Assembly (NCBI GenBank): GCA_016699795.1
Contig: CP065011.1
Coordinates: 78,168 to 142,167 of the forward strand
Direction: 5' to 3'
Length of the DNA stretch: 64,000 nucleotides
Source: Candidatus Moraniibacteriota bacterium
GTDB lineage: Bacteria; Patescibacteriota; Minisyncoccia; Moranbacterales; GCA-2747515
Position numbers and translations under genes: made by a program. Positions 1,108-32,223 of this stretch are shown one piece after another (positions within the stretch are counted from its first letter, which is position 1; each line of letters opens with the position of its first letter). The notes under the pieces were generated by a model. That model had not been told where the DNA came from. It searched no databases and saw only the letters and a list, made by a program, of their open reading frames with translations.

Positions 1108-2334
1108 TTAATTATTATATGGAGCATCTTTTTCTAAAAGCTTTTTATAGATTTCCTCCAAACGGTCCTTGTATATTTTTTCTTCAAGATCATTCACGCT
1201 TTGCAACGCTTTTTTGGAAACATTTTCAAGATTTTTCTGTTTCAAAACTTTTTTCATTACATGAGCTAAATCTTTAACATTTCCAAATTCAAAGAGGAAT
1301 CCATTCTCTCCATCAACTATTCTTTCTGTTATTCCTCCAATTCGCGAAGCAATCACGATCAATCCCTTTCCAAGAGCCTCTACCAAGGCGTAAGGCATAT
1401 TTTCATACCAAACAGAAGGAATAATAACAAGAGTAGTCAAGCCCATTTCTTCTGAGAGAGCTGTTTCTGAAAGATGTCCAAGAAATCGAACTCTATCAGA
1501 AACACCCAAGGAAACAGAAAGTTTTTCAAGATTTTTTCGTTCTGGACCATCTCCAGCAATAGTAAGAAAAAGTCCTTCGACAGAAACCATTGCTCGAAGA
1601 AGAACATCCACGCCCTTTTCAGAAGAAAGTCTTCCAGCATAAAGTGCTGAAGCATTTTTTTGATATGTATATTTAAAAGAAACACTATCTCTTTTGATAG
1701 GTTGAGAAAGGATTGTTATTTCTTTTTGAAATCCTCGTTCTTTAAATTTTTCTTTGAGAAATTTACTTGGAGAAAGTAAAATGTCTATTTTATTATAGAT
1801 ACCTATCAATGTATGGAAAAAGTTTTCGAAAGAACAGACCACACTCGAAGAAAAAGAATTTTGTACACATGTATCCAAAATACATTGAATGTTCCCTCCT
1901 TCCCAAATATGATCTCTCGAAAAAAGAGAATAGTTGGGACATACTAATTTATAGTCATGAAGCGTCATAACTATCGGAATATTTCTTTTTTTTAAGGTTG
2001 CTATAATTGAGGGAGAAATTTGATGATATATATTATGAAGATGTGCAATGTCCGGTTGAAATTTTTCCAAGAGCCTTTCTAAATTCCTTTGCGCTTCAAA
2101 ATTCCATAAAATCTTTCCCGTAAAACAAATACGATCTTGTATGCTATACTGTGTATGATAATCTACATTTTTTATAAAATAAGATTCCCATTCTGTTGGT
2201 TTATTCTGAGGATGTTGCATAGAAAAAAATGCTACCTCGTGACCCGCCTCAGAAAGAATCCGAGCCGTATCAAAATAGGCACGTTCAGCTCCTCCTCGAA
2301 GATAATGAAATTTATTAATCAAAAGTATTTTCAT
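1108..2334 (-). CDS. Glycosyltransferase family 4 (GT-B fold)
   Basis: 408 aa. N-terminal MKILLINKF..GGAERA and C-terminal EGxxxxxxEAL-like region (ENMPYALVEALGKGLIVIAS) are typical of GT4/GT1 enzymes. Confidence 0.7.
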   Translation of the reverse strand: MKILLINKFHYLRGGAERAYFDTARILSEAGHEVAFFSMQHPQNKPTEWESYFIKNVDYHTQYSIQDRICFTGKILWNFEAQRNLERLLEKFQPDIAHLHNIYHQISPSIIATLKKRNIPIVMTLHDYKLVCPNYSLFSRDHIWEGGNIQCILDTCVQNSFSSSVVCSFENFFHTLIGIYNKIDILLSPSKFLKEKFKERGFQKEITILSQPIKRDSVSFKYTYQKNASALYAGRLSSEKGVDVLLRAMVSVEGLFLTIAGDGPERKNLEKLSVSLGVSDRVRFLGHLSETALSEEMGLTTLVIIPSVWYENMPYALVEALGKGLIVIASRIGGITERIVDGENGFLFEFGNVKDLAHVMKKVLKQKNLENVSKKALQSVNDLEEKIYKDRLEEIYKKLLEKDAPYNN

Positions 2335-2354
2335 AATTCCATTCTAACGTATTT

Positions 2355-3743
2355 ATGAATAAAAGCATACCTTTCAAATTTTCCCTCTTCATGATTTTTT
2401 TAGCAGTATCTAGTGTTCTTTTTATAAGCCTTCTCATACTCAATTATCCCGTTTCTCAATCTTCTATTGTTTCTCTTTTCTCTCTTTTACCCTTCTTTCT
2501 TTTTGCCTTCCCATTTATCACCCTTGGTTTTCTTCTTATTGTTCGTCCGAGTCTCGATTACCTTTCGGATACATTTTATTTTTTTCTCCCCTTTGGCGAA
2601 GGTATGACCGTAACACTCGCTCAAGGATTCGGCTTGGGAGTTGTATTTCTTTCCCTTCTCTTTTTTCTTCGTTTTCGAAAAGCATTTCTCTCACACACAC
2701 TCTCAAGTTTTTTTCTCCTCCTCCTTTCTTGGGGTGCTTTTACACTTTCATACACCATAGATACAACACAAACTATGTATGAACTTTTCCGTTTATTGTC
2801 AATATTTTTTGTATTTTCTTTTTCTTATTATCTTATCGTAAACGAAAAGTCTTTTATTAAACTTCTTATTATTATTCTTGTCTCTTGTGTTATTCCTGTA
2901 TTCACAGCATGGACACAATTCGTGCTTGGAATTGGTTATACAGATGATGCTTTTTCTGTTCCCCGTATATACGGAACATTTGCACATCCAAATATTTTTG
3001 CTCTCTATCTTACTATTGCCATCGCCGCAGGATCTCTTCTTTTTCTCTTTATCAGAAAACCTCTTTACAAAATGTTTCTTGGATCAACATTATTCATTCT
3101 TCTTATAACTCTTTTCTTTACGTATTCCCGAGCAGCGTGGGGAACATTTTTTCTTTTTGCCATCCTTGTAATTTTCTATAAATATCCCAAATCACTTCCT
3201 TTTATTATTATTTTTCCCCTTATTGTATTTTTCATCTCTTCTCCTGTTCGCGATCGTGTAGAAGATGTTTTACACTTTTCTCAATCAAGCTCTCTCACCT
3301 GGCGTATAAACATTTGGACTGACACAATCTCCAAAACCCAAGAAGAAGGAAAAATTCTTCTTGGTTATGGCCTTAACACTTTTGAAGAAGTTGCTGAATC
3401 TTTACGGGGAATACGATTTGTCGTCAATGATCCTCATAGTGAATTTGTACGCTCATTTGTTGAAGGTGGGATTATTGGACTTCTCGTTTTCCTTATTTTT
3501 TCTCTCGCCCCTCTCATTATTTCTTGGAAGCAATTTCACATTACCTCCAAAGAAAAACTTACATCTCAGGATTCTCGTAAAAAAACTGTATTTTTCATTC
3601 TCTGGGCACTCCTTCTTTCACTTTTTTTCTTGAGTTTTACCGATCACGTTCTCCGCTCTACTATGGTTCAATGGTCGCTTTGGGCTCTTCTTGGTGGAGC
3701 ACTTCGTGTATATGTAAAACCTCCATCTTCCCTAAATGAATAA
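2355..3743 (+). CDS. O-antigen ligase / Wzy-like polysaccharide polymerase family membrane protein
   Basis: 462 aa with at least 10 predicted TM helices. Carries the conserved O-antigen-ligase-domain motif YSRAAWG followed by a large loop and further TM helices. Confidence 0.6.
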   Translation: MNKSIPFKFSLFMIFLAVSSVLFISLLILNYPVSQSSIVSLFSLLPFFLFAFPFITLGFLLIVRPSLDYLSDTFYFFLPFGEGMTVTLAQGFGLGVVFLSLLFFLRFRKAFLSHTLSSFFLLLLSWGAFTLSYTIDTTQTMYELFRLLSIFFVFSFSYYLIVNEKSFIKLLIIILVSCVIPVFTAWTQFVLGIGYTDDAFSVPRIYGTFAHPNIFALYLTIAIAAGSLLFLFIRKPLYKMFLGSTLFILLITLFFTYSRAAWGTFFLFAILVIFYKYPKSLPFIIIFPLIVFFISSPVRDRVEDVLHFSQSSSLTWRINIWTDTISKTQEEGKILLGYGLNTFEEVAESLRGIRFVVNDPHSEFVRSFVEGGIIGLLVFLIFSLAPLIISWKQFHITSKEKLTSQDSRKKTVFFILWALLLSLFFLSFTDHVLRSTMVQWSLWALLGGALRVYVKPPSSLNE

Positions 3744-3808
3744 TTTGTGTTAGATTATTCAATTACGTTATATTTTGATTTTTTAAAAAGTACTCTTATC
3801 TCACTACT

Positions 3809-4696
3809 ATGCAAAGGATTTTCTTTTTTCTTCTCACCAATATCGCGGTTATAGCAGTCGCTTCTCTCTTATTGAGCATTTTCAACATTGCGCCCTATCT
3901 CAGTGCTTCAGGAATAAATTATCAATCTCTCCTTATTTTTTCTGCTGTATTCGGATTTTCTGGATCAATCATTTCCCTTCTTATCTCTAAATGGATGGCA
4001 AAAAATGCCTTTGGTATAAAAATCATCCAGCAAGCAAAAACTCCTGAAGAACAGTTTATTTTTCAAACAGTGCAAACACTAGCGAGACAATCATCTCTTG
4101 GTATGCCTGAAGTAGGAATATACGATTCACCCGAAGCTAACGCATTTGCTACAGGTTGGAATCGAAATCATGCGCTTGTTGCTGTTTCCACAGGACTTCT
4201 TAATGGAATGGAAAAAGATGAAATAGAAGCGGTCTTGGGCCATGAAATTGCACATATCGCCAATGGCGATATGGTAACCCTCACACTCATTCAAGGAGTA
4301 GTAAATACCTTTGTTATTTTCTTTGCTCGAATCGCAGCTTATGCCGTTCAAGTCTTCTTTAGTAAAGATAATGAAGAGGAAGGAATAAGCACACTTGCCT
4401 ATTCTCTCACTTCCATTGTTTTTGAAATTCTTTTTGGAATCTTAGCAAGTATGATTGTTATGGCTTTTTCTCGACACAGGGAGTTTCGAGCTGACTCAGG
4501 AAGTGCAAAATTTCTGGGAAAAGAAAAAATGATCAAAGCCCTTCAAAAACTCGAGACCCTCCAAGATCGCCTTATCGATCCTCGAGGAAAGTCTTTTGCT
4601 ACTATGAAAATTTCTGACAAGCCTTCTGGATTTCTTTCTTTTTTTTCTAGTCATCCCCCACTCAAAGATCGGATAGAAGCCTTGAAAAAACAATAA
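3809..4696 (+). CDS. htpX: Zn-dependent membrane protease HtpX (M48 family)
   Basis: 295 aa. Two N-terminal TM helices, HEIAHIANGD (HExxH) zinc motif, and C-terminal TM plus conserved tail typical of HtpX. Confidence 0.85.
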   Translation: MQRIFFFLLTNIAVIAVASLLLSIFNIAPYLSASGINYQSLLIFSAVFGFSGSIISLLISKWMAKNAFGIKIIQQAKTPEEQFIFQTVQTLARQSSLGMPEVGIYDSPEANAFATGWNRNHALVAVSTGLLNGMEKDEIEAVLGHEIAHIANGDMVTLTLIQGVVNTFVIFFARIAAYAVQVFFSKDNEEEGISTLAYSLTSIVFEILFGILASMIVMAFSRHREFRADSGSAKFLGKEKMIKALQKLETLQDRLIDPRGKSFATMKISDKPSGFLSFFSSHPPLKDRIEALKKQ

Positions 4697-4702
4697 AAAA
4701 TA

Positions 4703-4729
4703 CCCCGTCTCATATCTGGACGGGGTTTT
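4703..4729 (+). terminator. Rho-independent terminator after htpX
   Basis: Stem ccccgtc / gacgggg with 9-nt loop, followed by TTTT; 6 nt after the TAA stop at 4694-4696. Confidence 0.6.
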
Positions 4730-5018
4730 AAAAATCTTTCAGTCATCTAAATTTTCTTCGGCAAACATTGCGCGCAAACCTTCCCACAAAAAAACCAAAG
4801 GAAAGAGAACGAGAAGAATGCCAAACACCAGAGCTATGTACCACCATGAATTACTCGGCTCACTCATTATATATCTCCAATACGTATCAAAAAACTTTTT
4901 TCACTCTAGCAGAAAAGGCTCGTAGAGAAAAGATCCCCTCTGAAATGAAAACCTTTTCATCAAAAGAAAAACCGCCGAAAGAAGTATCTTTCAACGGTTT
5001 AGTAAAAACTAGAGACTA

Positions 5019-5429
5019 CTAACTACACTGTCCGAACTTCCCTCTGAAAACGATAGGGACGTATCTTGTGGGATTTATGAATATTCCACAAGCAGTTTCG
5101 TCATCGGCAGTCCATGTGCCGGGCATTTCGTCTGAAAGACGATTTTTGCCATCCGTAACGATGTACGGTTTTCCGAATTCCATTTCTGAGCTCTTTTTTA
5201 CACATCCATGTAATCTACCCGTTTCTTCATTCACCCTACAGGCGAAGAAGTTTTTAGAGTTCCAAGAAGTTATCTTTTCCTTGTATATTTCGTTCCACAA
5301 CAATCCATCTGGAGTTGTCGCCGCGAAAACCTTCGAAGAAAAAAAGAGGAAGAGGAGAAGAATTCCTGTTATAAAGAGAAAAAGAGAGAAAGCCCCTCCG
5401 AACAAGTAGGGTGTATCGTATTTTTTCAT
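5019..5429 (-). CDS. Small secreted Cys-containing protein (signal peptide/TM, 4 Cys), uncharacterised
   Basis: 136 aa with N-terminal hydrophobic segment. Contains motifs DGLLW...TSW...CRVNEETGRLHGC...GKPYIV shared with the adjacent GC-rich gene at 5666-6079. Confidence 0.45.
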   Translation of the reverse strand: MKKYDTPYLFGGAFSLFLFITGILLLFLFFSSKVFAATTPDGLLWNEIYKEKITSWNSKNFFACRVNEETGRLHGCVKKSSEMEFGKPYIVTDGKNRLSDEMPGTWTADDETACGIFINPTRYVPIVFRGKFGQCS

Positions 5430-5665
5430 CTCTCACTCCTAGGCTCACTTGCCTAAAAAATATAAAAGAACATATTTGTCCGAAAAAATTCGGTACAGGT
5501 TTGGACAGAGAGATTGTATTCTCCGTATCCAAGACTTTATCGAATAAATAAAAAAGAAAATCGACAGAGAACAATACGAATACTATCTTCTATTCGGTAA
5601 ATTTTACCAAAAGAAAAATATTATTGTATGTTCTCTGACGATTAATCGAGACGATGTTCAGACGG

Positions 5666-6079
5666 TTATTTTACCGTCCAGTAATCGTCGGATCGGGCCT
5701 TGAACGACCCGACCACGCTCCCGGGCCCAATCATTTGGGTTCCAGGAGCGGACCCAGCCTCACCCCATGTTGATCCTCCGCAGAAGATCACGTATGGGAG
5801 TCCGCTCTGCATGGCAGAAGGAGGCCCACACTCAGTCATCGACGGGCGTCCATTTTCGGCGCGACAGATCTCGCAAAGAGATGGGTCATAAGGAATGACC
5901 CTTACTCCTTGGGAAGCCGCGGACCAAGAAGTTCCGTCGTAGCGTCCAGCGTGGGCCGGAGAGGCAAGGAGGAGGAGCAGAAACAGGGTTCCTACTATTG
6001 CCAGTGTGGCTATGAAGCCCCCAAAAGAAGCTTCCGCCCACGTCTCATCCTGCTGTTGCTGATTCTGAAAATAGTTCAT
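5666..6079 (-). CDS. Small secreted Cys-containing protein, GC-rich paralog of 5019-5429
   Basis: Start is reassigned to the in-frame ATG at 6077-6079 (MNYFQNQQQQ...), which has an AGGAG Shine-Dalgarno 6 nt upstream. The AT-rich part of the track ORF (to 6352) upstream is non-coding. TM segment, then DGTSW...CEICRAENGRPSMTEC...GLPYVIFCGG, matching the neighbour's motif spacing. Roughly 50% GC versus the ~33% background. Confidence 0.45.
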   Translation of the reverse strand: MNYFQNQQQQDETWAEASFGGFIATLAIVGTLFLLLLLASPAHAGRYDGTSWSAASQGVRVIPYDPSLCEICRAENGRPSMTECGPPSAMQSGLPYVIFCGGSTWGEAGSAPGTQMIGPGSVVGSFKARSDDYWTVK

Positions 6080-6253
6080 CTCGAACTCCTGGGGGTGTTT
6101 TCCCCTAAATATTGAAAAAGTACTTGTTCTCTCTTCCTTTTTGGGAAGATGATGGAATGACATCAACGATATCAATCCAATAATCTTTCGAAAAAAAGGA
6201 ATGCCCGGAAGCGAGAAAGAGATTATTCGAATACATCTCTCACGCTTCCTGGC

Positions 6254-6282
6254 AATATAGCACATCCTGACAATTTTGTCAA
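6254..6282 (-). promoter_or_regulatory. Sigma70-like promoter driving the GC-rich small gene, with a palindrome over the -35
   Basis: Minus-strand TTGACA (complement of 6277-6282), 17-nt spacer, TATATT (complement of 6254-6259). The inverted repeat TGACAAttTTGTCA (6268-6281) overlaps the -35. Confidence 0.45.
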
Positions 6283-6437
6283 GATATATACGGATTTTAC
6301 CGCGCACTTTCAAGGATATCCTTGAATTTTCTTTGAGAAAATCCTTTCTCAAAGCGGAAAGTCATACCTTCTTTCCCATTTTTTATCTTCTTTGATTCTT
6401 TACAATTTCCGTGTAAAGGTTATTTCCTTACCAACAA

Positions 6438-8114
6438 CTACCCAGAAAAAGAACCTAATGCACTTTCAATTCCTCCCGAAGAAGAAATTGTTATGTGCTG
6501 TTTCTCCTCATTATTGGAAGATGCAGTTTGTTGATCTGCGGCCCAACCAAACGGTGAGGAGGTTGACGTGTTATTGTGTTGATCAGCTTTATAATCCTTT
6601 ACAAAATGATTTTCATCACTCTGAGAGGATGGGACTGATTTTGCTTTCGGAGCTACAGCTTTCGCTTTCACACCGAGGTATTGCTGAGAGCTTCCGGCAT
6701 TGTCCGTAAGAGCCGTAGTAGCAACCTGCGAGTTAGCACGAAGCCAACCCAATCCAGCATTCCACTCGATCTCCACGATGAAGTGAGGATCGGGGAATTG
6801 TACACCTACACCGATGCGCCAGACATCGTCCTTCGTAGCGATTCCGGCAAGGATTTTACCCCCGATCGGATTACTGACCACGTCGCTGATATGCCAGATC
6901 CCCAGCGTAAGCTCGGGTTTGACATTCCAGTCTGCTCGATCTAATTCGAACCGAAGAATGGCGCCGACCACGAGTTTCCTTGCGGACTCATGATTGACAG
7001 GTGTTCCTTTCCAGAGAATGTCCGTTTTGTTACCACTAAGAGGAATATCCACCCATGGCATAAAACGAACAGTTACACCAGTCTGATCATCAATTTTGAA
7101 CCGCTCCCGAAGTTGCAAAGCGATTCGAAGATCCATACCATCGGCACGGAGCTTTTCTACCAGACCATCCTTGGAGTATCCACGAGTTGAGCCTTGTCCC
7201 GCAAGGACAACGAATTCAACCGCATCGATGTCACCGACCGGTCCACGACCTTCGATACCAACGCCGTAGAAATCAGAGACTTCCACCCATTCCTTATTAT
7301 TGAAACGAGCGGACTTACCTGCGATCGACGGACCCACCTTCCAGCCGTTTCCAACTGGGAAAAGGCACGAGAAACGGAGTGATCCGCTTTCTCCACGTTG
7401 CCCCATCTGAGCCCAAAGAGCACCTACGGCTTCACAACCAAGACTTTCTTGGGTAGGAGCGGGAGCTGGTGGCGTGGGAACTGTTACTGTGTTCCAAGCA
7501 ACGTTTCCACACCGCATGGCGATGTCAACCTGCTTGCTACCATTCATGGATGGGCATGCCCAAACCATGATGTCAGTACCACTGGCGTTTTGAGTCTTGC
7601 CCCAATTCCCCTTGCCCATAGCCATACCTTCCCAGGTAAAACCTATGGGACGAGCAACGGCCTGACACTTTCCAGAAACAAGATCTCCCCGAACCTGCTC
7701 CACTTCCGAACTCGAAAGTCCGAATTGAGACAGGCGACGAGATTGCTCTGAAGTGAGTTGCAATTCTTCCGTCTTGTGCCATTCTTTCCGGAGGCGAAGA
7801 GGAAGAAGAGAATCAGCGCCGACTTTCTTCCACTGGCGAATACCAGAGGAAGATTCCAGAACAACAGGAGATTGTTTCACAGAAGAAACGACTATTCCTG
7901 ATTCTGGAAGCGTGAGGGTTTGTCCAACGCGAATCGTGTGAGGAGCCTTAATCCCATTCGCTCTGGCAATTTCTTGCCAAGAAGTCTGGGATTTATTGGC
8001 GATTTTGATCAAGGAGTCACCCTTGACCACCGTGTACGTCCCCGCCGAAGCAAGGGGCGCGCCAACAACCGCGAGAAAAATTCCCGCGATGACGAGAAGT
8101 TTCCTAAACATCAT
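6438..8114 (-). CDS. LysM (peptidoglycan-binding) domain protein with signal peptide and large beta-rich C-terminal domain
   Basis: Start trimmed to MMFRKLLVIAGIFLAVVGAPLASA (signal peptide; GGGAGG just upstream), which avoids a 62-nt overlap with the upstream gene. Canonical LysM: YTVVKGDSLIKIANKSQTSWQEIARANGIKAPHTIRVGQTLTLP. The C-terminal ~400 aa show an alternating hydrophobic beta-strand-like pattern (VTVRFMPW, LVVGAILRFELD, WRIGVGVQFP, FIVEIEWNAGLGW). Lies in the GC-rich island. Confidence 0.6.
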   Translation of the reverse strand: MMFRKLLVIAGIFLAVVGAPLASAGTYTVVKGDSLIKIANKSQTSWQEIARANGIKAPHTIRVGQTLTLPESGIVVSSVKQSPVVLESSSGIRQWKKVGADSLLPLRLRKEWHKTEELQLTSEQSRRLSQFGLSSSEVEQVRGDLVSGKCQAVARPIGFTWEGMAMGKGNWGKTQNASGTDIMVWACPSMNGSKQVDIAMRCGNVAWNTVTVPTPPAPAPTQESLGCEAVGALWAQMGQRGESGSLRFSCLFPVGNGWKVGPSIAGKSARFNNKEWVEVSDFYGVGIEGRGPVGDIDAVEFVVLAGQGSTRGYSKDGLVEKLRADGMDLRIALQLRERFKIDDQTGVTVRFMPWVDIPLSGNKTDILWKGTPVNHESARKLVVGAILRFELDRADWNVKPELTLGIWHISDVVSNPIGGKILAGIATKDDVWRIGVGVQFPDPHFIVEIEWNAGLGWLRANSQVATTALTDNAGSSQQYLGVKAKAVAPKAKSVPSSQSDENHFVKDYKADQHNNTSTSSPFGWAADQQTASSNNEEKQHITISSSGGIESALGSFSG

Positions 8115-8844
8115 AACCTCCCGAGGATTTCTCCTCTTTTTTAGAACTTTCTTTCTTCTCTTCAAGAAGGTTTGGCTCTTTGAGGAGCGCGCACCCTATT
8201 TGAAGGACTTTGGGAAGGGCTCCAATGGGTCCATACATTATCGGTCCGAGAATATCGGATGACGATATAGACCCAAGCCCACAAATTGCTGACCGTTCTT
8301 TCCAATCGACAAGCGATGGGACCGAAACAGCGTTGAGTGCATCTTCTCCGAAAAGGAGTCTCGCTCCTGATCCCGGTATATCATCGGAGATAAACGGGAA
8401 CTCTCCTCCGAGATGAGCATATATATCCCGAAGCTCGGAAGCACTTAACTCCTTTGCCACAGGGACCATATACGCCTTACCTCGCGCGGAGATGACTTCC
8501 ACACCTCGGAACTCACTCGAAGAAAAAACATACCCTTTTTCTCCTTTCGGATAAAGAGAAATGTTTTGACCCGAGACGCGAGCTCGAAATGCCTTTCGGC
8601 AAATTTCGACCTGCTTTTTGTCAAGAGTCATGTACTGTTTGCACATAACCTCTCGTTTCACCTCCTTCGGAAGTGAAACCTCATATCCCTTTGCCGAATG
8701 AATCGGCGGAGGGGCCACAAATGTCGTGGCATTGGCAAGATATTCCATCTCACCACCACTCAGACCCAACGACTCACGAGGAGTCATTGGAGCGCATCCC
8801 GACGCGATAATCGCGACGAGAACAAGACTCAACCTATTATTCAC
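8104..8844 (-). CDS. Lipoprotein (lipobox LVAIIASGC), uncharacterised
   Basis: Start reassigned to GTG at 8842-8844 with GGAGG 6 nt upstream (...agagaGGAGGtttgttGTGaat). The AT-rich 5' part of the track ORF (to 8940) matches flanking non-coding composition. Signal peptide VNNRLSLVLVAIIASG-C. GC-rich composition. Confidence 0.45.
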   Translation of the reverse strand: MNNRLSLVLVAIIASGCAPMTPRESLGLSGGEMEYLANATTFVAPPPIHSAKGYEVSLPKEVKREVMCKQYMTLDKKQVEICRKAFRARVSGQNISLYPKGEKGYVFSSSEFRGVEVISARGKAYMVPVAKELSASELRDIYAHLGGEFPFISDDIPGSGARLLFGEDALNAVSVPSLVDWKERSAICGLGSISSSDILGPIMYGPIGALPKVLQIGCALLKEPNLLEEKKESSKKEEKSSGGYDV

Positions 8845-9000
8845 AACAAACCTCCTCTCTCTTTCGAGAGAAAAAATCAAAAAAAATTTTAAAAGTACTC
8901 GGATCAAAACTTCATATAAACTATGAAAGTGATCCCGCAAGGAGAGAAAAAGAATTTTCTCCCTTGTGCGGAAACATTCTCAAGCAATTCTTTCAATAAA

Positions 9001-9690
9001 CTATATATCGTAGATCAGACCGCCACGCGATTCCTTATTCTTCATTGGAGGAGCGAAAACTGAATAATCTGTTGTATCCACTTCTTGTTTATACCATATA
9101 CGAATAAAGAAAATGGCTATTCCAAGGATCATCCCAGCGATGCTTCCAAATATCAATTGCATTATGGTTGGATTCTGCTCCACAATAGGTCCTGATATAA
9201 GCTTTATCGATAATGACTCCGGTGGACCTGATCGAAATAATGTATTTTGATTAATAAGCACATCAGATATAGCCTTAGCAATACCAATAGCATCATTTCT
9301 GCTATCACGATATACAGTCACTTCAAGAATACCTGCATTCGATCTTTGTTTTACCTCTACAGTATTCTGCCATTCTTTTAAACGACTTCGTTCATCACCC
9401 GAGAAAGGCTCTCTTTCAAAATAATTTGTTCGAGAAGCCTCGTTAAGAAAAAGATCACTCATCACAGCTTCACGAAGAACATTTCCACTATATTCAGCAC
9501 TTTTAGAAAGTGTATAGAAGTCTTTAGAATCCTCACTGTGTTGCATTACAAGAAAATCTGTTCGAACTTTGTATGCATCAGGAACAAATATCAAAAGAAG
9601 AAAAACGAAAACGCCCCCAATAAGTGCTGAAAAAAATATATTTCCAACATTGTTACGGATATTCGTAAAAAACAGAGAATAGTAATACAT
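9001..9690 (-). CDS. Polysaccharide co-polymerase (Wzz/chain-length-determinant-like): TM1, external domain, Pro-rich segment, TM2
   Basis: 229 aa. N-terminal TM (FFSALIGGVFVFLLLIFV), soluble middle, then GPIVEQNPTIMQLIFGSIAGMILGIAIFFI near the C-terminus, which is PCP family topology. Confidence 0.45.
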   Translation of the reverse strand: MYYYSLFFTNIRNNVGNIFFSALIGGVFVFLLLIFVPDAYKVRTDFLVMQHSEDSKDFYTLSKSAEYSGNVLREAVMSDLFLNEASRTNYFEREPFSGDERSRLKEWQNTVEVKQRSNAGILEVTVYRDSRNDAIGIAKAISDVLINQNTLFRSGPPESLSIKLISGPIVEQNPTIMQLIFGSIAGMILGIAIFFIRIWYKQEVDTTDYSVFAPPMKNKESRGGLIYDI

Positions 9691-9808
9691 AATAAAGAGA
9701 GTTTTTTCAATAATGCTAACGGGCTACATTAGCACAACTTTTAATTTTTGTCAATAGTAACGACAAAAAACGCCTTATTAAAAACGTTTTATTTTTCTCT
9801 TTATTTCT

Positions 9809-11029
9809 CTATTCTGGTTGAGCACCAAGAACAACTGTAACTTTTTGTTCAATTCCTTGACGAACAAATGATACAGTCACTTCATCTTTTTCTTTAAAAT
9901 TACTCAAAACATTGGAAAGCGGATTTTCATAACTAATAGAAATATCATTTACCGAACGAATGATATCCCCATAGCGAAAACCAGCTTTTTGCGCAGGAGA
10001 ACCCAAAAGAACGACTGGAGAAAGAGGACTAGTCTTTTGTTCAAAAGACAACCAAGCGCCTGATTCTATATTTAAGTCATTTCTTTTTGCTATAGTCGGG
10101 GTAATGGATATATAAGACGCTCCAAAAAATGGAGGTTGATAGCTAGGATTTGCAACAACCCTTTGCATGCTTTTTTTCATATCATTTCCTCTCAAAACAT
10201 AAGGAAAACTCTGATCCCCTACCGTCCTAGTACCCAAGATACCCATTAATTCTCCCGTATAACTTAATACCGGAGAACCAGATCGTATATCTTTTTCTTC
10301 CAAAAAAGAAACTTCAAAAACTCCTTGATGTTTTTCGGTTGAAGAAGAGACCTTATTAGCCAAAGAAAAAGTTGGATTAAATGTTTTAATAACTCCAAAA
10401 TAAATCTCATTTTGATTCAAAATATCATTTTCTCCAAGAGCAATAACTTTTCTTCCGGAAGAAAAATCTTCAGAATCAGCAAAAACTACTGGAGTAAAAT
10501 TATCCCCAGATATTCGAAGATATAATAAATGAGAAAAAGAATCATATGCAAAAAATTTCGCATCAAAACGAGTTCCGTCAAAATCCATTATGTCATAAGT
10601 TGTCTCAGAAAAATCTAAAGAATCTGAAAAAGATGTAACCAATAAACCATCCGTAGTAAGAATTGTTCCTGTTAAAGAAAAAATTCTTTTTGTTAAAGCT
10701 TTTTCCTGCATCATAATATATACAATGGAATTGCTCACATTTTGAATAGAACGATCTAGTCGATCATCATCACGTATAATTATCTCTTCCCTATTGTTAA
10801 TAACTGTTGTATTTTCTTTTGCCGTTTCTAACAAAGAAAAATTTGAAAACATTTCTAAAGAAGCCAAAAATGGCAAAGCCAAACGAATGGAAAAAATCGA
10901 GACAATTCCAATAAAAAGAATAATCCCTATATATCGAAAGAGAAATCTAAAAATAAATACAGATTTTCGTAAAAAAGGAATCATATATATAAAGAATACA
11001 CGAAAAATAAAAAATATACAATAATACAA
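9809..11029 (-). CDS. Membrane-anchored trypsin-like serine protease (HtrA/S1C-like) with C-terminal PDZ domain
   Basis: 406 aa. N-terminal TM region; trypsin-fold core with Ser motif region IRSGSPVLSYTGELMGI; C-terminal PDZ-like (GFRYGDIIRSVND). Confidence 0.5.
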   Translation of the reverse strand: MYYCIFFIFRVFFIYMIPFLRKSVFIFRFLFRYIGIILFIGIVSIFSIRLALPFLASLEMFSNFSLLETAKENTTVINNREEIIIRDDDRLDRSIQNVSNSIVYIMMQEKALTKRIFSLTGTILTTDGLLVTSFSDSLDFSETTYDIMDFDGTRFDAKFFAYDSFSHLLYLRISGDNFTPVVFADSEDFSSGRKVIALGENDILNQNEIYFGVIKTFNPTFSLANKVSSSTEKHQGVFEVSFLEEKDIRSGSPVLSYTGELMGILGTRTVGDQSFPYVLRGNDMKKSMQRVVANPSYQPPFFGASYISITPTIAKRNDLNIESGAWLSFEQKTSPLSPVVLLGSPAQKAGFRYGDIIRSVNDISISYENPLSNVLSNFKEKDEVTVSFVRQGIEQKVTVVLGAQPE

Positions 11030-11089
11030 AAATAAGTACGCGATGCTTCCTTATTGATTTTAGATACATTAAAAGTTACACTAAGATTT

Positions 11090-11542
11090 ATGAGTATTCT
11101 CTGTGAAAACAAACGAGCCTTTCATGACTACACCCTTCTGGAAAAATATGTAGCTGGCTTAGCATTGACCGGACAGGAAGTAAAAGCTATAAAAAATCAT
11201 CAGATTAGTCTCAAAGGATCCTTTGTAACTTTTTCCAATAATGAAGCTTTCCTCACAAATGCCCATGTTAGCGCCTATAAAAACGCTGGGGAACTCCCCT
11301 CTTATGAACCAGAGCGTTCTAGAAAGCTTCTTCTCAAAAAGAAAGAAATTTCAAATCTTGTAGAAAAAAAACAAACACAGGGACTTACAGTTGTACCCAT
11401 AAAGATTTTCATTTCTAGACGTGGACTCCTTAAAATTGAAATAGCTCTCGCTCGAGGAAAGAAACAATTTGATAAACGTGCAGACATTGCAAAACGCGAA
11501 TCACAAAGAAGAATGCAGAGAATATCTTCGTCCTTGAATTGA
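11090..11542 (+). CDS. smpB: SsrA-binding protein SmpB
   Basis: ENKRAFHDYTLLEKYVAGLALTGQEVKAIKN...ISLKGSFV... matches SmpB. The likely start is the second in-frame ATG (MSILCENKRAFHDY); the track ORF begins at 11054. Confidence 0.8.
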   Translation: MSILCENKRAFHDYTLLEKYVAGLALTGQEVKAIKNHQISLKGSFVTFSNNEAFLTNAHVSAYKNAGELPSYEPERSRKLLLKKKEISNLVEKKQTQGLTVVPIKIFISRRGLLKIEIALARGKKQFDKRADIAKRESQRRMQRISSSLN

Positions 11543-11606
11543 AGTTCGGTATAGAGTATACTTTTTCCTAGAGTTAAAAATAGTATAAATAATAAAAAAG
11601 ATTTTT

Positions 11607-11978
11607 ATGAACGACGTTCAGACATTATTCGATCAAATGCAAAGTGCCAAAAAAGAACAGAAAGATATTAGAAAAGAATATAGAGATGCGCTTTCACACG
11701 ATTCAACGTATCAGCAATCGCTAGAAGATCTCAAAGTTCTTCGTGATAAGAAAAAACTTATTGAATCTGAAGTTCAATCTCAAATGGGAAATCGTTGGGA
11801 ACGAATGGATGACCTTAAAAGAGAAATTGCTAATGCACAAGAGATGATTTCAGATGCAACATTAAACGCTATCATGAAAGGCGAGTCTATAGCAATAAAA
11901 GACGAGTACGACACTGTATATGAGCCTCAATTCAATGTTACTTTCAAAAAAGCCGACGGCGTAAGAGACTTTCAATAA
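11607..11978 (+). CDS. Hypothetical coiled-coil protein
   Basis: 123 aa, charged/helical, no recognisable domain. Followed by a strong terminator. Confidence 0.4.
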   Translation: MNDVQTLFDQMQSAKKEQKDIRKEYRDALSHDSTYQQSLEDLKVLRDKKKLIESEVQSQMGNRWERMDDLKREIANAQEMISDATLNAIMKGESIAIKDEYDTVYEPQFNVTFKKADGVRDFQ

Positions 11979-11994
11979 AAATTCTCGAAAAAAA

Positions 11995-12026
11995 ACAGAC
12001 TTTGCACAATAAAGTCTGTTTTTTTA
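11995..12026. terminator. Bidirectional rho-independent terminator between convergent genes
   Basis: acagacttt / aaagtctgt stem with gcacaat loop. T-run on plus (ttttttt), and A-run upstream gives a U-run for the minus-strand transcript of 12097-14211. Confidence 0.6.
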
Positions 12027-12096
12027 TTTTCATTTCTTTCTATTACGAAATTTTCACAGATTTGCAATAAAAAATAGAAACTCTCATTAAATTCTT

Positions 12097-14211
12097 TTAT
12101 GTTGTCAAAACCACCCGGGAATCCATAATTATAGATCCCTCTCCTTTCTGACAAACCAGAAGAGGATTAATATCAATCTCTCTTATTTCAGGAAATATCT
12201 CCATTATATGAGCGATTCGGAAAACTGTTTCTATAAGAGAATCCTTATCTAAAATTTCTCCTCCTCGAGCACCTTCCAGAATAGGAAAAGATCGTAAAGA
12301 ATGAATCATATCAATAATATCTTGCCTAAAAATAGGCAAAACCCCAAAAGAAACATCTTTAAAAACCTCCACATAAACACCTCCAAGACCAACCATAATA
12401 ATTGATCCAAGAACTTTATCACGCTTTGCTCCAACTACCATATGAAGTCCTTTTTCTGGAGCCATTTCCATAACCATAATACCATCAATTCGTGCATAAG
12501 GTGCATTCATACGGACCACTTCTCCCATATTTTCAAATTCACGAACGACATCTTGAATCGGAATTCCTACGCGAACACCTCCTACATCTGTTTTATGAAG
12601 AATATCGGGAGAAACAATCTTCAACACAACTTTCTGACCAATCTCTTGTGCAAAAGATAATGCCTCTTGCGCATTTTCTACTATTTTAGATCGTAGCATA
12701 TGAAAACCAAGACTTTCTAAAAATGGACTAGCATACGCTTCGGGAAGTTCCAAAATATTCTTTTGTTGAAAATTACTCAAAATTAATCGGGAGTCATTTA
12801 TTTTTTGTGTTGAAAAATATTCGCCACTCACACGATCACTCTCGGCATTCTTCTTAAGAAATTGTCTTCTCTTTTCAATCAAGCCCAGAACAAATCCCGC
12901 TTCATTTGGATTTCCAGCGACATAAAGCCCTTCTTTTTCCAACAAGGCCACACCTTCAGAAACAAGATTTTTCCCCATAAAAACAGGAAGGATAATTTTA
13001 TTCGTTTCTTTAGATTTTTTTATAATAACTTGAGCTGTTTCTTTTACAGCTGTCATTGTTTGAGGAGTTAAAATAACACAGACTGCATAAACAGCCTCAT
13101 CTTTAAGAATATATTCAAGTGCTTTTTCATAACGATCAGCATGAGCGTCTCCTAAAATATCAACAGGATTTATAACACTTGCTGCTAGAGGAAAAGATTC
13201 TCGCAATTTATTTTTTGTTTCTTGAGAGAGCTCTGCCATTATAATTCCCTGTTCAGAAAGAGCATCCGTTGCCAACACACCAGGACCTCCAGCATTTGTT
13301 ATCACAGCGACGTCACCCTTTTCGAAAGTATTATCGTACAAAGAAAAGATTTTCATTGCCCAAAAAAGCTCTTCTACTCCAGAAACACGAAGGATCCCTG
13401 ATTGTCGGAATATAGCATCATACGTTTCATCATTCCCTGCAAGCGCCCCTGTATGAGAAGCACTCGCCATTGAACCTTCTTTCGTCTTTCCTGATTTGAG
13501 AATAATAACAGGCTTTTTCTTCCCCGAGGTCTGCATAAATTCAATGAACGCATCTATTTGTCGTAAATCTTCTGCATAAAGAGCAATAACATCTGTTTCT
13601 TCATCATTCATCAAATATTCCAAAAGTAAACGTTCTTCTAAAACAGTCTTATTTCCCGTACTTATAAATTTAGAAAAACCAATACCTTGCTCTTTGGCCC
13701 AATCCAAAACAGATGCGCATAAAGCACCACTCTGTGAAAGAAATGCAATATTTCCCTTCTTAGGAACAAGTGGTGCGAAAGAAGCATTAAGGCCAATATG
13801 TGGATTAAGAATTCCTAAACAATTAGGTCCCAAAAGTGCCATGTTATACTTTTTGGCAATATCTGAAAGTTCTTCTTCTCGAGCAATATTTCCAGACTCT
13901 CGAAAACCAGCAGAAATAACTATTACAGAATGAATTCCTTTCTCGCCACATTGAGTGAGTACTGTAGCCACAATTTTTGCAGGAACAATAATAATTGCAA
14001 GATCAATGGTGTGTGCAATATCATCCACGTCTGCATATACTTTTTTTCCAAAAAGTTCTTCTATTCTTGGGTTTACCAAAAAAACATCTCCTTCATACAA
14101 TCCTTCTACAATATTTTTCGCTACATCATTTCCCACACTTCCTTCTTCCCCAGAAGCACCAATAACAGCAACTGACCCAGGATGAAACATTTTTTTTATT
14201 TGCTCTTGCAT
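12097..14211 (-). CDS. Acetate--CoA ligase (ADP-forming) / NDP-forming acyl-CoA synthetase, fused alpha+beta
   Basis: 704 aa. N-terminal CoA-binding/succinyl-CoA-synthetase-like (PGSVAVIGASGEEGSVGNDV...), ligase-CoA domain and C-terminal ATP-grasp domain. Confidence 0.75.
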   Translation of the reverse strand: MQEQIKKMFHPGSVAVIGASGEEGSVGNDVAKNIVEGLYEGDVFLVNPRIEELFGKKVYADVDDIAHTIDLAIIIVPAKIVATVLTQCGEKGIHSVIVISAGFRESGNIAREEELSDIAKKYNMALLGPNCLGILNPHIGLNASFAPLVPKKGNIAFLSQSGALCASVLDWAKEQGIGFSKFISTGNKTVLEERLLLEYLMNDEETDVIALYAEDLRQIDAFIEFMQTSGKKKPVIILKSGKTKEGSMASASHTGALAGNDETYDAIFRQSGILRVSGVEELFWAMKIFSLYDNTFEKGDVAVITNAGGPGVLATDALSEQGIIMAELSQETKNKLRESFPLAASVINPVDILGDAHADRYEKALEYILKDEAVYAVCVILTPQTMTAVKETAQVIIKKSKETNKIILPVFMGKNLVSEGVALLEKEGLYVAGNPNEAGFVLGLIEKRRQFLKKNAESDRVSGEYFSTQKINDSRLILSNFQQKNILELPEAYASPFLESLGFHMLRSKIVENAQEALSFAQEIGQKVVLKIVSPDILHKTDVGGVRVGIPIQDVVREFENMGEVVRMNAPYARIDGIMVMEMAPEKGLHMVVGAKRDKVLGSIIMVGLGGVYVEVFKDVSFGVLPIFRQDIIDMIHSLRSFPILEGARGGEILDKDSLIETVFRIAHIMEIFPEIREIDINPLLVCQKGEGSIIMDSRVVLTT

Positions 14212-14251
14212 ATATTTTTCTAAAAGTCCCTATTTATGTATATTCACATTT

Positions 14252-32218: not shown

Positions 32219-32223
32219 GTCTA

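What the first reader, a model, noticed from the sequence alone, without database searches (positions are those of the whole stretch)
5636..8870. 3.2-kb GC-rich island encoding three exported envelope proteins with its own promoter and strong GGAGG ribosome-binding sites
Composition jumps from the ~30-35% GC background to roughly 50% GC between about 5636 and 8870, then drops back sharply. The segment carries three co-directional genes. The first is a Cys-rich small secreted protein. The second is a 558-aa signal-peptide LysM protein with a ~400-aa C-terminal domain showing beta-strand periodicity. The third is a 247-aa lipoprotein starting at GTG. All three have canonical GGAGG/AGGAG Shine-Dalgarno sequences. 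Native genes in this window mostly lack such sites; for example rpsI, rplM and rpoA have none. A near-consensus sigma70 promoter (TTGACA-17-TATATT) sits at 6254-6282. No integrase or transposase is present. This looks like a horizontally acquired or recently recombined peptidoglycan-binding surface cassette. In a likely episymbiotic small-genome bacterium it could be host-attachment related.
Basis: partly seen in the sequence, partly recalled or inferred. Interest (0 to 1): 0.7.

Follow-up and report, generated by a model that had tools for sequence, protein, structure and literature searches.

The report
Conserved GC-rich envelope operon, not foreign DNA
The GC-rich stretch is an old, vertically inherited envelope operon of a tiny "candidate phyla radiation" bacterium. 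It encodes a wall-anchored protein predicted to form an outer-membrane-type beta-barrel, which is unexpected in a group thought to have only one membrane, and its messenger RNA is unusually structured.

Summary
Window 5.0-8.85 kb is about 50% GC against about 33% background. Its four co-directional minus-strand genes are almost the only ones in 64 kb with GGAGG-type ribosome-binding sites.

The same cassette sits at the same place, next to HtpX/Wzy/GT4, in nine other Moranbacteria/Paceibacteria contigs, down to 26% protein identity. In nearly all of them it keeps the same GC3 excess (+0.17 to +0.31) over its own background, plus the ribosome-binding sites. Protein divergence tracks the flanking housekeeping genes.

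About half of the GC excess is synonymous. LIPO and LYSM coding regions fold far more stably than codon-permuted or dinucleotide-shuffled controls, and more on the sense strand. This points to selection on mRNA structure.

Function is inferred, not shown.

The parts
8104..8844 (-). Lipoprotein gene (LIPO): 246 aa, GTG start, lipobox ...IASG|C. The SD GGAGG is at 8855..8851, preceded by a small hairpin. The stop overlaps the LysM gene start by 11 nt.
   Evidence: ORF and sequence. The family has 10 clusters and no Pfam or NCBIfam hit. The lipobox is conserved in orthologues. GC3 is 0.44. The mRNA shows excess structure.
6438..8114 (-). LysM / beta-barrel protein gene (LYSM), 558 aa. Domains in order: signal peptide 1-24, LysM 25-70, alpha/beta domain about 90-210, Pro-rich linker 212-224, about 12-13 long antiparallel strands 228-451, helix 453-470, disordered Ser/Thr-rich tail 477-558. 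The SD GGGAGG is at 8122..8117.
5666..6079 (-). Small secreted protein 1 (SM1): 137 aa, signal peptide ending AHA|G, and a mature part of about 93 aa with 4 Cys. It is among the more conserved proteins of the cassette. The SD AGGAG is at 6090..6086.
   Evidence: GC 0.57 and GC3 0.57. No hit in Pfam, NCBIfam or PDB sequences.
5019..5429 (-). Small secreted protein 2 (SM2): 136 aa, a distant paralogue of small protein 1. The SD AGGAG is at 5440..5436. Overall GC is lower (0.42) but GC3 is elevated (0.44).
   Evidence: BLASTP 25% identity, E 4e-6. GC3. An orthologue is present in L009.
6254..6282 (-). Conserved sigma-70-type promoter, TTGACA-17-(TG)CTATATT, for the small-protein gene(s).
   Evidence: 11 of 12 match, the best in the region. 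The TTGACA and GTGCTATA blocks are invariant in six loci, including the 38%-identity relative L011. Promoter-like equivalents occur in L002 and L006.
6190..6253 (-). Promoter-proximal hairpin (arms 6202-6220 and 6236-6254) followed by a U-run. It could be a 5'-terminal stabiliser, an attenuator, or the terminator of the upstream LIPO-LYSM unit.
   Evidence: Inverted repeat I2. The fold of the spacer has z = -9.1. The stem sequence differs but a hairpin is kept in L004/5/8 and L011.
6124..6197 (-). Conserved 74-nt structured leader RNA motif with two nested helices. The consensus is UUYGAGAGAU...UGGAU[variable stem-loop]UCCAU..UCUUCCGAA. It has no Rfam match.
   Evidence: RNAalifold predicts 19 pairs. 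94% of cells are paired, against 33-56% when partners are slid. 7 pairs have changes on both sides, and 0 of 500 shuffles reach the covariation score. Covariance model R1 scores 65-80 bits in 9 loci, always upstream of small1. Rfam gives nothing near threshold. This spacer segment is 98% identical between the window genome and L009, while coding dS is 0.4-0.7.
5472..5549 (-). Weak paralogous copy of the leader motif, upstream of small protein 2.
   Evidence: R1 match of 22.4 bits, E 0.023. This is suggestive only.
8934..8971 (-). Conserved hairpin between the PCP-like gene and the lipoprotein gene (CCGCACAAGGGAGAAAA/UUUUUCUCUCCUUGCGG). It is not followed by a U-run.
   Evidence: Sequence. The hairpin is present with compensatory differences in L009, L004/5/8, L011, L002, L006 and L064 (read by eye).
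4969..5000 (-). Intrinsic-terminator-like hairpin (14 pairs plus a T-run) ending the unit after small protein 2.
9001..9690 (-). Context gene directly upstream (U229): a two-TM protein resembling a polysaccharide chain-length determinant (CpsC/Wzz-like). It has normal AT-rich composition and no SD, and always precedes the cassette.
   Evidence: TIGR01006, E 1.1e-7 but far below its curated cutoff. Synteny. GC3 is 0.26.

Best explanation
This is a native, vertically inherited envelope operon of a clade of CPR bacteria (Moranbacteria and related Paceibacteria). It is not an acquired island.

What it encodes:
- A lipoprotein and, translationally coupled to it, a peptidoglycan-binding (LysM) protein. 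The C-terminal half of that protein is predicted to be an outer-membrane-type beta-barrel of about 12 strands, followed by a helix and a Ser/Thr-rich tail.
- One or two small secreted Cys-containing proteins, expressed from their own conserved sigma-70 promoter through a conserved structured leader RNA.

How the composition arises: GC-richness is a maintained property of the coding sequences. About half comes from a Gly/Ala/Pro/Trp-rich composition and half from G/C-ending synonymous codons. Together they give mRNAs with much more secondary structure than their protein sequence and composition require.

Inferred, not shown: in a genome whose other genes are AT-rich and lack Shine-Dalgarno sites, these messages form a separate expression class. 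They are heavily structured, hence probably long-lived. Strong SD sites next to small hairpins recruit ribosomes to them. This suits very abundant structural envelope proteins.

Also inferred: the lipoprotein/barrel pair forms a wall-tethered channel or anchor in an outer envelope layer. It is functionally tied to the neighbouring surface-glycan genes (PCP-like, Wzy-like, GT4).
For: Native and ancient:
- Identical synteny (HtrA or other gene, PCP-like, LIPO, LYSM, small protein(s), HtpX, Wzy_C, GT4) in L002, L004, L005, L006, L008, L009, L011, L063 and L064.
- The cassette has a GC3 excess of +0.17 to +0.31 in nine genomes whose backgrounds range from 0.23 to 0.43. That is a log-odds shift of 0.7-1.3. 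The shift is 0.2 in the most divergent genome.
- Protein identity tracks the flanking genes.
- SD sites are conserved on cassette genes and absent from flanks in all loci.

Not amino-acid composition alone: composition predicts GC 0.40-0.45, but 0.48-0.57 is observed. Both C- and G-ending codons double across all amino acids.

The excess is coding-specific: spacers inside the island are 0.33-0.38 GC.

mRNA structure, for LIPO and LYSM:
- Against synonymous-codon permutation, z is -3.5 to -10.3. Forty background genes range from +2.6 to -3.0.
- Against block-wise permutation, z is -3.0 to -7.8.
- Against dinucleotide shuffles, mean per-window z is -1.5 to -2.35. Background genes range from -1.0 to +0.2.
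- The sense strand is more structured than the antisense strand, paired p = 1e-5.

Coupling: the LIPO stop and LYSM start overlap or abut in every locus.

Promoter and leader.
Against: - There are no expression, half-life, localisation or membrane data, so the link from structured mRNA to stability to abundance is inference.
- Ribosomal-protein genes, usually the most highly expressed, show neither the GC3 shift nor SD sites.
- Two background genes also reach z of about -3 in the permutation tests.
- The small-protein genes show the structure excess only in some genomes.
- Excess structure could be a consequence of GC enrichment driven by something else, although the controls hold composition fixed.
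- The barrel rests on one AF2 model built from 22 sequences.
- CPR are regarded as monoderm and as having lost the outer membrane and porins. The only cultured relative is described as Gram-positive. The window also carries an LCP enzyme typical of Gram-positive walls. It is therefore unclear what the barrel would sit in.
- About half of Parcubacteria reportedly lack the anti-SD motif. The 16S 3' end of this genome is not in the window.
Confidence: 0.55

Rival explanations
1. Recent horizontal acquisition. Here the cassette came from a GC-richer, SD-using donor into this genome and has not yet ameliorated.
For: Atypical GC, codon usage and SD sites relative to the rest of the window.
Against: - The cassette is present at the same locus, with the same offset, in nine other related genomes.
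- The offset tracks each genome's own background, from 0.45 to 0.72 GC3.
- Identity tracks the flanks.
- There are no mobility genes, tRNA or flanking repeats.
- Spacers inside the island are AT-rich.
- No homologue was found outside this CPR context in the 5.8 billion-cluster (word-seeded) and 1.84 billion-representative libraries; contexts were checked for about 12 of the family members.
Confidence: 0.04
2. Recombination hot spot with GC-biased gene conversion. Here the cassette is repeatedly exchanged by homologous recombination among related Moranbacteria, and biased repair drives GC3 up.
For: - dS of LIPO, LYSM and SM1 is 0.40-0.74, against 1.35 to saturated in flanking HtrA, PCP-like and SM2 for the window genome versus L009.
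- For L002 versus L006, dS is 0.55-0.89 against a saturated flank.
- Both C- and G-ending codons rise uniformly.
- GC3 does not correlate with residue conservation.
Against: - There is no dS difference in the L004/L005/L008 trio.
- Spacers within the cassette stay at 0.33-0.38 GC.
- gBGC does not explain the sense-strand-specific excess RNA structure or the SD sites.
- Low dS could equally reflect constraint on synonymous sites from RNA structure.
Confidence: 0.15
3. Ancient transfer from a diderm donor into the ancestor of this clade, with the foreign composition frozen by functional constraint. This rival concerns origin and is compatible with the best explanation.
For: The fold is otherwise typical of diderm bacteria. 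The cassette differs from the host genome in every expression signal.
Against: - No donor-like homologue was found in the two libraries (5.8 billion clusters, word-seeded; 1.84 billion representatives).
- Synonymous sites are saturated between distant members (dS above 1.4). Composition therefore cannot simply be 'frozen'; it must be actively maintained.
Confidence: 0.15
4. The barrel is a modelling artefact. Here the C-terminal domain is a soluble beta-rich wall-associated domain, and the cassette is an ordinary LysM cell-wall protein operon.
For: - The first AF2 run had pLDDT 44.
- Sequence matches to PF03797 are below threshold (13.8-15.7 bits against a cutoff of 26).
- There is no hit to PDB sequences.
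- The lineage is considered monoderm.
Against: - The second model has pLDDT above 90 across nearly all strands.
- Most strands show dyad hydrophobic/polar alternation.
Confidence: 0.2
5. Assembly chimera joining a GC-rich fragment into an AT-rich genome.
For: Abrupt composition boundaries.
Against: - An independent Logan assembly is 100% identical across both junctions over 18.1 kb.
- The same junction genes adjoin the cassette in nine other contigs from different samples.
Confidence: 0.01

Closest known systems
Inverse autotransporters (intimin/invasin, type Ve secretion)
   Different: - There is no match to any inverse-autotransporter model at E <= 0.1.
- There are no Ig-like or lectin passenger domains, only a disordered tail of about 80 aa.
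- An extra alpha/beta Cys-containing domain lies between LysM and the barrel.
- There is an obligatory partner lipoprotein.
- The host lineage has no known outer membrane or BAM.
Classical autotransporter beta-domain (PF03797; BrkA, Hbp, AIDA-I, NalP, EspP)
   Different: Sequence scores are below the Pfam cutoff, and the window protein has none. The barrel is not at the C-terminus. There is no N-terminal passenger, and a helix follows rather than precedes the barrel.
Peptidoglycan-tethered outer-membrane barrels (OmpA, and OmpM/SlpA of Terrabacteria)
   Same: The logic is the same: one polypeptide combines a wall-binding module and a membrane barrel. OmpM and SlpA are proposed as the ancestral tether in the Terrabacteria, the clade to which CPR belong.
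   Different: The wall-binding module is LysM, not OmpA_C or SLH. The barrel is smaller. The literature states that CPR lost OmpM, SLH and porins.
Composite PCP / periplasmic OPX / beta-barrel polysaccharide export translocons of Wzx/Wzy pathways. I recall these from the literature (Myxococcus Wzp-type barrels); I did not read that work here.
   Same: The gene neighbourhood matches: a chain-length-determinant-like protein, a lipoprotein and a beta-barrel sit next to a Wzy-family protein and GT4, conserved from 100% down to 26% identity.
Stabilising 5' leaders and strong SD elements of abundant envelope-protein mRNAs (ompA 5' UTR, S-layer gene leaders, cryIIIA STAB-SD). Cited from my own knowledge.
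   Same: The cassette shares long structured leaders, a hairpin at or near the 5' end, and a strong SD flanked by a hairpin, on genes for envelope proteins.
   Different: Here the structure excess extends through the whole coding regions. It is coupled to a gene-specific shift in base composition, and the rest of the genome lacks SD sites.

Membership tests
Horizontally acquired genomic island | Composition and codon usage atypical for the host genome | tested here: met
   GC is 0.48-0.57 against about 0.33. GC3 is 0.44-0.57 against 0.23 +/- 0.04.
Horizontally acquired genomic island | Patchy distribution: absent from, or at different sites in, related genomes | tested here: not met
   The locus and neighbours are the same in nine other related contigs.
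Horizontally acquired genomic island | Mobility signatures: integrase or transposase, tRNA target, flanking direct repeats | tested here: not met
   The flanks are HtpX, Wzy, GT4, PCP-like and HtrA. The only tRNA is at 53 kb. Flanking direct repeats were not tested.
Horizontally acquired genomic island | Divergence pattern incongruent with flanking genes | tested here: inconclusive
   Amino-acid identity tracks the flanks. However, dS is lower than the flanks in 2 of 3 lineage comparisons.
LysM domain proteins (PF01476) | Score above the Pfam gathering threshold | tested here: met
   57.3 bits against 20.9, residues 27-70. 18 of 22 family members hit.
Autotransporter beta-domain (PF03797) | Sequence score above the gathering threshold (26 bits) | tested here: not met
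   The window protein has no hit. Four relatives hit below threshold; the two scanned individually score 13.8 and 15.7 bits.
Autotransporter beta-domain (PF03797) | 12-stranded transmembrane beta-barrel fold | tested here: met
Autotransporter beta-domain (PF03797) | C-terminal barrel preceded by a pore-spanning helix and an N-terminal passenger | tested here: not met
   The barrel is internal. The helix (453-470) follows it. The N-terminal part is LysM plus a small domain.
Inverse autotransporter (intimin/invasin) | Match to the family's beta-domain model | tested here: not met
   No such Pfam family appears at E <= 0.1 for any of 22 members.
Inverse autotransporter (intimin/invasin) | Order LysM, then barrel, then C-terminal exported passenger of Ig-like domains | tested here: inconclusive
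   The order LysM, barrel, C-terminal extension is met. The extension is an 80-100-aa disordered tail without Ig domains.
BAM-dependent outer-membrane proteins | Presence of BamA/Omp85 and an outer membrane in the organism | not testable with these tools
   Only 64 kb of this genome and about 200 kb of relatives are readable, and none of it carries Omp85. The literature places CPR among OM-less lineages.
Bacterial lipoproteins | Signal peptide ending in a lipobox [LVI][ASTVI][GAS]C | tested here: met
   The window has ...VAIIASGC. Orthologues have ...LASVAGC...LVGC...LAGC and ...GASGC. This was read from sequence; no predictor was run.
Polysaccharide co-polymerase (CpsC/Wzz), for the upstream gene 9001-9690 | Score above the curated cutoff of TIGR01006 | tested here: not met
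   31.5 bits against 296, although E is 1.1e-7 over 190 residues. It is a likeness, not membership.
Any Rfam family, for the leader RNA at 6124-6197 | Score at or above the gathering threshold | tested here: not met
   The best overlapping hits are 17-20 bits against thresholds of 76-128. The whole window at gathering thresholds gives only the tRNA.

The most novel reading that the evidence does not exclude
A clade of CPR bacteria (Moranbacteria/Paceibacteria) is textbook-classified as single-membraned. It may nonetheless build an outer envelope layer from a peptidoglycan-tethered, outer-membrane-type beta-barrel and its lipoprotein partner, or use that pair to pierce a host membrane. Under this reading the genes form a distinct, ancient expression class. 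The class would be defined by gene-specific GC enrichment, pervasive selected mRNA secondary structure, exclusive Shine-Dalgarno sites and a new leader RNA, in genomes that otherwise initiate translation without SD sites.
Probability: 0.25. Interest if true: 0.85.

Novelty: new variant of a known kind. Interest (0 to 1): 0.7.

Why it matters
1. Compositional islands are routinely read as foreign DNA. This is a clean counter-example. The offset is kept over saturating divergence and scales with each genome's own mutational bias, so it must be actively maintained. The evidence points to selection on mRNA structure rather than on codons or amino acids.

2. CPR bacteria are used as a monoderm anchor in scenarios for the loss of the outer membrane. 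A conserved, wall-tethered, lipoprotein-partnered barrel of the autotransporter/intimin fold in this group would call for a re-examination of their envelope, or would reveal a host-directed device.

3. In genomes that are almost SD-free, and in a group where half the members reportedly lack the anti-SD motif, a handful of genes with perfect SD sites gives a direct handle on how translation initiation is partitioned.

4. The covarying leader is a candidate new cis-regulatory RNA.

Tried and rejected
- Amino-acid composition as the sole cause. Rejected because GC3 is doubled and expected GC from amino-acid content explains only about half the excess.
- Translational selection for optimal codons. 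Ribosomal-protein genes share none of the shift.
- Translational-accuracy selection. GC3 is 0.45 at conserved and 0.42 at variable residues, p = 0.69.
- Discrete long hairpins in the coding regions. None were found, so the excess structure is diffuse.
- GC3 heterogeneity along the gene as an artefact in the permutation test. Block-wise permutation with identical codon content per window still gives z of -3 to -7.8.
- Dinucleotide bias as an artefact. Addressed.
- Sequence searches for function of the lipoprotein and small proteins in Pfam, NCBIfam and PDB sequences. Nothing was found.
- A profile of the barrel domain against PDB sequences. Nothing was found.
- Gathering more loci:
  - The search for related loci with the wide alignment failed.
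  - Genome contigs returned only the contig already held.
  - Metagenome contigs returned none.
  - A promoter-pattern scan returned 49 unrelated loci with no cassette proteins.
- The afdb50 fold library was unavailable.
- The first AF2 run, with 8 sequences, was too poor to use.
- No conserved sigma-70 promoter was found upstream of the lipoprotein gene, so the start of the LIPO-LYSM transcript is unresolved.

Full report
OBSERVATION

The composition jump is real. In 400-nt windows GC rises from 0.37-0.42 to 0.50-0.54 at 5601-6200, dips to 0.385-0.40 around 6001-6600, is 0.49-0.535 from 6601 to 8800, and falls to 0.37 by 8801. The rest of the 64-kb window averages about 0.33.

The genes lie on the minus strand, in this order:
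- lipoprotein (LIPO), 8844..8104, GTG start, 246 aa;
- LysM protein (LYSM), 8114..6438, 558 aa, overlapping the previous stop by 11 nt;
- small secreted protein 1 (SM1), 6079..5666, 137 aa;

GC3 of these four genes is 0.44-0.57. In 47 other ORFs it is 0.15-0.32. That set includes S9, L13, L17, RpoA, S4, S11 and S13 at 0.18-0.26, whose identities were confirmed.

If the island proteins used the background codon preferences, their GC would be 0.40-0.45. Observed GC is 0.48-0.57 and background genes are 0.31-0.40. So roughly half of the excess is amino-acid composition and half is synonymous. The synonymous shift is general: C-ending and G-ending codons both about double, for essentially every amino acid, and ribosomal-protein genes look like background. 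Spacers inside the island stay at 0.33-0.38 GC, at the upper end of the window's intergenic range of 0.27 +/- 0.06.

All four genes carry GGAGG/GGGAGG/AGGAG 6-10 nt before the start, and 44 of 47 other ORFs have nothing comparable. I then allowed any ATG/GTG/TTG in the first 95 codons as a possible start. Even so, only 3 of 47 background genes show a strong motif, and two of those are at implausible internal TTGs. The third is MurJ.

It is the best match in 5.3 kb.

ORGANISM AND ASSEMBLY

The LysM protein is identical to an NCBI protein from a Candidatus Moraniibacteriota MAG on a 1,186,598-bp contig. The lipoprotein carries locus tag IPN70_00440.

A Logan assembly of run SRR11674012 contains the locus on a 47.8-kb contig. 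It is 100% identical to window 1-18114, across both junctions. A chimera is therefore excluded for practical purposes.

IS IT FOREIGN? NO

Full-length relatives of the LysM protein are few. There are 8 clusters at 50-100% identity among 5.8 billion clusters, and 23 representatives among 1.84 billion in a profile search of the domain without LysM.

I fetched the genomic context of nine relatives, at 82, 62, 61, 57, 64, 50, 38, 31 and 26% identity. In every contig long enough to show it, the arrangement is the same:
- a two-TM PCP-like protein, the lipoprotein and the LysM protein, with the last two tightly coupled;
- one or two small proteins;
- then (HtpX), Wzy_C on the opposite strand, and GT4.

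In each genome the cassette is GC-richer than its own flanks: 36% to 50%, 46% to 62%, 39% to 52% and 43% to 60%. GC3 of LIPO and LYSM exceeds the local background by 0.17-0.31 in nine genomes whose backgrounds run from 0.23 to 0.43. This is a log-odds shift of 0.7-1.3. Only the most divergent member (L063) shows a small shift of 0.2. SD sites are likewise present on cassette genes and absent from flanking genes in all loci.

Pairwise protein identities of LIPO and LYSM track those of flanking genes. For the window genome versus L004, LYSM is 0.66 against AspRS 0.72, HtpX 0.80, GT4 0.58 and Wzy 0.54. For L004 versus L005, LYSM is 0.86 against 0.93, 0.94, 0.77 and 0.88.

Synonymous sites between distant members are saturated, with dS above 1.4. 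The offset therefore cannot be a relic and must be maintained in each lineage.

WHAT MAINTAINS THE COMPOSITION?

Translational selection is unlikely, because ribosomal-protein genes do not share the shift. Selection for accuracy is also unlikely, because GC3 is 0.45 at conserved and 0.42 at variable residues, p = 0.69.

The positive result is RNA structure. I folded 100-nt windows along each coding region and compared them with three controls.

1. Versions in which synonymous codons were permuted within the gene.
   - LIPO and LYSM are 3.5-7.7 kcal/mol per 100 nt more stable than the controls, with z of -3.5 to -10.3, in five genomes (window, L004, L002, L011, L064).
   - Forty flanking or other genes give z between +2.6 and -3.0.
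2. Permutation only within the folded 99-nt block, so that codon content per window is identical.
   - Cassette z is -3.0 to -7.8.
   - Background genes range from +0.9 to -3.3.
3. Dinucleotide-preserving shuffles.
   - Mean per-window z is -1.5 to -2.35 for LIPO and LYSM.
   - Background genes range from -1.0 to +0.2.

The effect is stronger on the sense strand than on its reverse complement. Mean z is -1.62 against -1.02 over 124 windows, paired p = 1e-5. This favours a transcript-level property over a DNA-level one.

SM1 shows the excess clearly in the window (z -4 to -6) but weakly elsewhere. SM2 does not show it. No long discrete hairpins were found in the coding regions, so the structure is diffuse.

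I infer that G/C enrichment at all three codon positions serves, or is inseparable from, a highly structured and probably long-lived mRNA. I also infer that the strong SD sites, each directly preceded by a small GC hairpin, let ribosomes load on such messages in a genome whose other genes rely on AT-rich, SD-less starts. These steps are inference. No expression or half-life data exist here.

AN UNRESOLVED COMPLICATION

dS of LIPO, LYSM and SM1 is 0.57, 0.74 and 0.40 between the window genome and L009. The flanking genes give 1.35 (HtrA), 2.5 (PCP-like) and saturation (SM2). Between L002 and L006, cassette dS is 0.55 and 0.89 against a saturated flank. In the L004/L005/L008 trio, cassette and flanks have the same dS.

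Two explanations fit the low dS: constraint on synonymous sites from RNA structure, or occasional homologous replacement of the cassette between related lineages. The second could feed GC-biased gene conversion. The AT-rich spacers and the strand asymmetry argue against gBGC as the main cause, but I cannot exclude a contribution.

THE PROTEINS

LYSM starts with a signal peptide and a LysM domain (PF01476, 57 bits). An AF2 model from 8 sequences was poor, with pLDDT 44. With 22 family members (alignment A3), mean pLDDT rose to 75, and above 90 for most of residues 90-460. The model shows, in order:
- LysM;
- a small alpha/beta domain (about 90-210) with conserved cysteines;
- a Pro-rich linker;
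- 12-13 long antiparallel strands (228-451);
- a helix (453-470);
- a disordered Ser/Thr/Gln-rich tail.

The protein therefore works like a wall-tethered 12-stranded barrel. Its domain order (LysM, barrel, C-terminal extension) resembles inverse autotransporters. It is not a sequence member of either autotransporter family.

LIPO has a conserved lipobox and no detectable relatives outside the cassette. SM1 has a conserved mature domain of about 93 aa with four Cys, and likewise no relatives elsewhere.

The gene upstream (9001-9690) resembles a CpsC/Wzz chain-length determinant only weakly.

The window as a whole is an envelope-glycan region. It carries six GT4s, a GT2, two Wzy_C proteins, an LCP ligase, MurJ, two DUF4012 proteins, dTDP-sugar enzymes, and HtrA and S41 proteases.

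WHY THE BARREL IS SURPRISING

The papers I read treat CPR as monoderm Terrabacteria that lost the outer membrane, porins and SLH/OmpM tethers. The one cultured member of the class is described as Gram-positive. I found no paper describing such a protein in CPR.

Possible functions, none of them tested:
- a tether or channel in a proteinaceous or lipidic outer layer, following the OmpA/OmpM/SlpA logic;
- an export conduit for the glycan made by the conserved neighbours (PCP-like, lipoprotein, barrel, Wzy, GT4);
- a device inserted into a host membrane.

PROMOTER AND LEADER RNA

The LysM-to-SM1 spacer folds far better than shuffles, z = -9.1. Aligned across six loci, the TTGACA and GTGCTATA blocks are invariant. 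L002 and L006 have equivalents.

Downstream of it come a hairpin plus a U-run, whose sequence varies while the stem is kept, and then a 74-nt core (window 6197..6124). RNAalifold predicts two nested helices in the core. Of its cells, 94% are paired, against 33-56% when partners are slid. Seven pairs have changes on both sides, and 0 of 500 shuffles reach the covariation score. The sample is small, with 9 sequences and an effective number of 4.3.

A covariance model finds the core at 65-80 bits in nine loci, always before SM1. It also gives a weak hit before SM2, at 22 bits, E 0.02. Rfam has nothing like it.

This segment is 98% identical between the window genome and L009, more than any coding stretch. 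An alternative hairpin that uses the 3' arm of the outer helix can be drawn in most sequences, as seen in the aligned leader sequences. The element may therefore switch between two folds.

A second conserved hairpin lies between the PCP-like gene and LIPO. I found no conserved sigma-70 promoter there, so where the LIPO-LYSM transcript starts is open.

CONTEXT FOR THE SD FINDING

Tsurumaki et al. 2022 (PMC9297842) report the anti-SD motif in only 48% of Parcubacteria, and frequent loss of bS21. The 16S gene of this genome is outside the window. Precisely spaced, conserved GGAGG motifs on four genes argue that the anti-SD is retained, but this must be checked.

VERDICT

The acquisition hypothesis is rejected. 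What is there is an ancient, lineage-specific envelope operon whose coding regions are kept GC-rich and highly structured at the RNA level. It has private translation and transcription signals and a new leader RNA, and it encodes a predicted outer-membrane-type barrel in a lineage not expected to have one.

My confidence in each claim:
- native and ancient: about 0.9;
- excess mRNA structure is real: about 0.8;
- barrel fold: about 0.75;
- the stability/abundance rationale: about 0.4;
- any specific cellular function: 0.35 or less.

Noticed in passing
window 6124-6197 (-), with promoter at 6254-6282 (-) and hairpin at 6202-6254 (-): A conserved, covarying 74-nt leader RNA motif lies upstream of the small secreted protein gene. 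It is absent from Rfam. It is 98% identical between two genomes whose coding dS is 0.4-0.7. A possible alternative hairpin suggests a switch.
   Followed up: yes
window 5472-5549 (-): A weak second copy of the leader motif (22 bits, E 0.02) lies in front of the paralogous small protein gene.
   Followed up: partly
window 8934-8971 (-); equivalents in L002, L004, L005, L006, L008, L009, L011, L064: A conserved hairpin with compensatory differences lies between the PCP-like gene and the lipoprotein gene, with no U-run after it. It may be a processing site or a stabiliser. No conserved promoter was seen in this spacer.
   Followed up: partly
window 38314-39978 (-): MurJ (lipid II flippase) is the only gene outside the cassette with a clear SD (AGGAG) at its annotated start, yet its GC3 is ordinary (0.20).
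   Followed up: no
L006 7777-8142; L005 4301-5341 and 19306-19902; L004 13938-14534; L063 16506-17393; L002 8017-8211: Other genes in related genomes, several of them small secreted proteins, also combine an SD site with raised GC3. One example is L006 hyp121 with GC3 0.84. This hints at a wider SD-plus-GC gene class of exported proteins.
   Followed up: no
L004 11200-11544, L005 16518-16904, L008 16501-16869: A conserved small gene (MAKITFEKGDY...) between GT4 and LigA has GC3 of 0.46-0.52 against a background of 0.28-0.31, but no SD.
   Followed up: no
window 20659-23253 (-) and 60108-63842 (-): Two giant surface proteins (SBBP beta-propeller plus Ig-like domains; seven purple-acid-phosphatase-N/FN3 repeats) have GC of about 0.40, mainly from GC2. 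They coincide with local reversals of GC skew to positive values.
   Followed up: partly
window 26996-27771, 31434-32474, 23254-23795: Three stretches of 0.5-1.0 kb contain no ORF of 120 aa or more. They probably hold short genes, such as small ribosomal proteins next to the S13-S9 cluster, and were not examined.
   Followed up: no
L008 10001-11485 (protein P0007): In this JGI contig the LysM/barrel gene is truncated and out of register after the last strands. This may be a frameshift or an assembly error.
   Followed up: no
window genome vs L009 and L002 vs L006, cassette versus flanks: Synonymous divergence of the GC-rich genes is 2-5 times lower than that of adjacent genes in these two pairs, but not in the L004/L005/L008 trio. 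The cause is undecided between constraint from RNA structure and occasional homologous exchange.
   Followed up: partly
window 46238-47440 (-): A LytR-CpsA-Psr ligase, typical of Gram-positive wall-polymer attachment, lies in the same envelope region as the predicted outer-membrane-type barrel.
   Followed up: no
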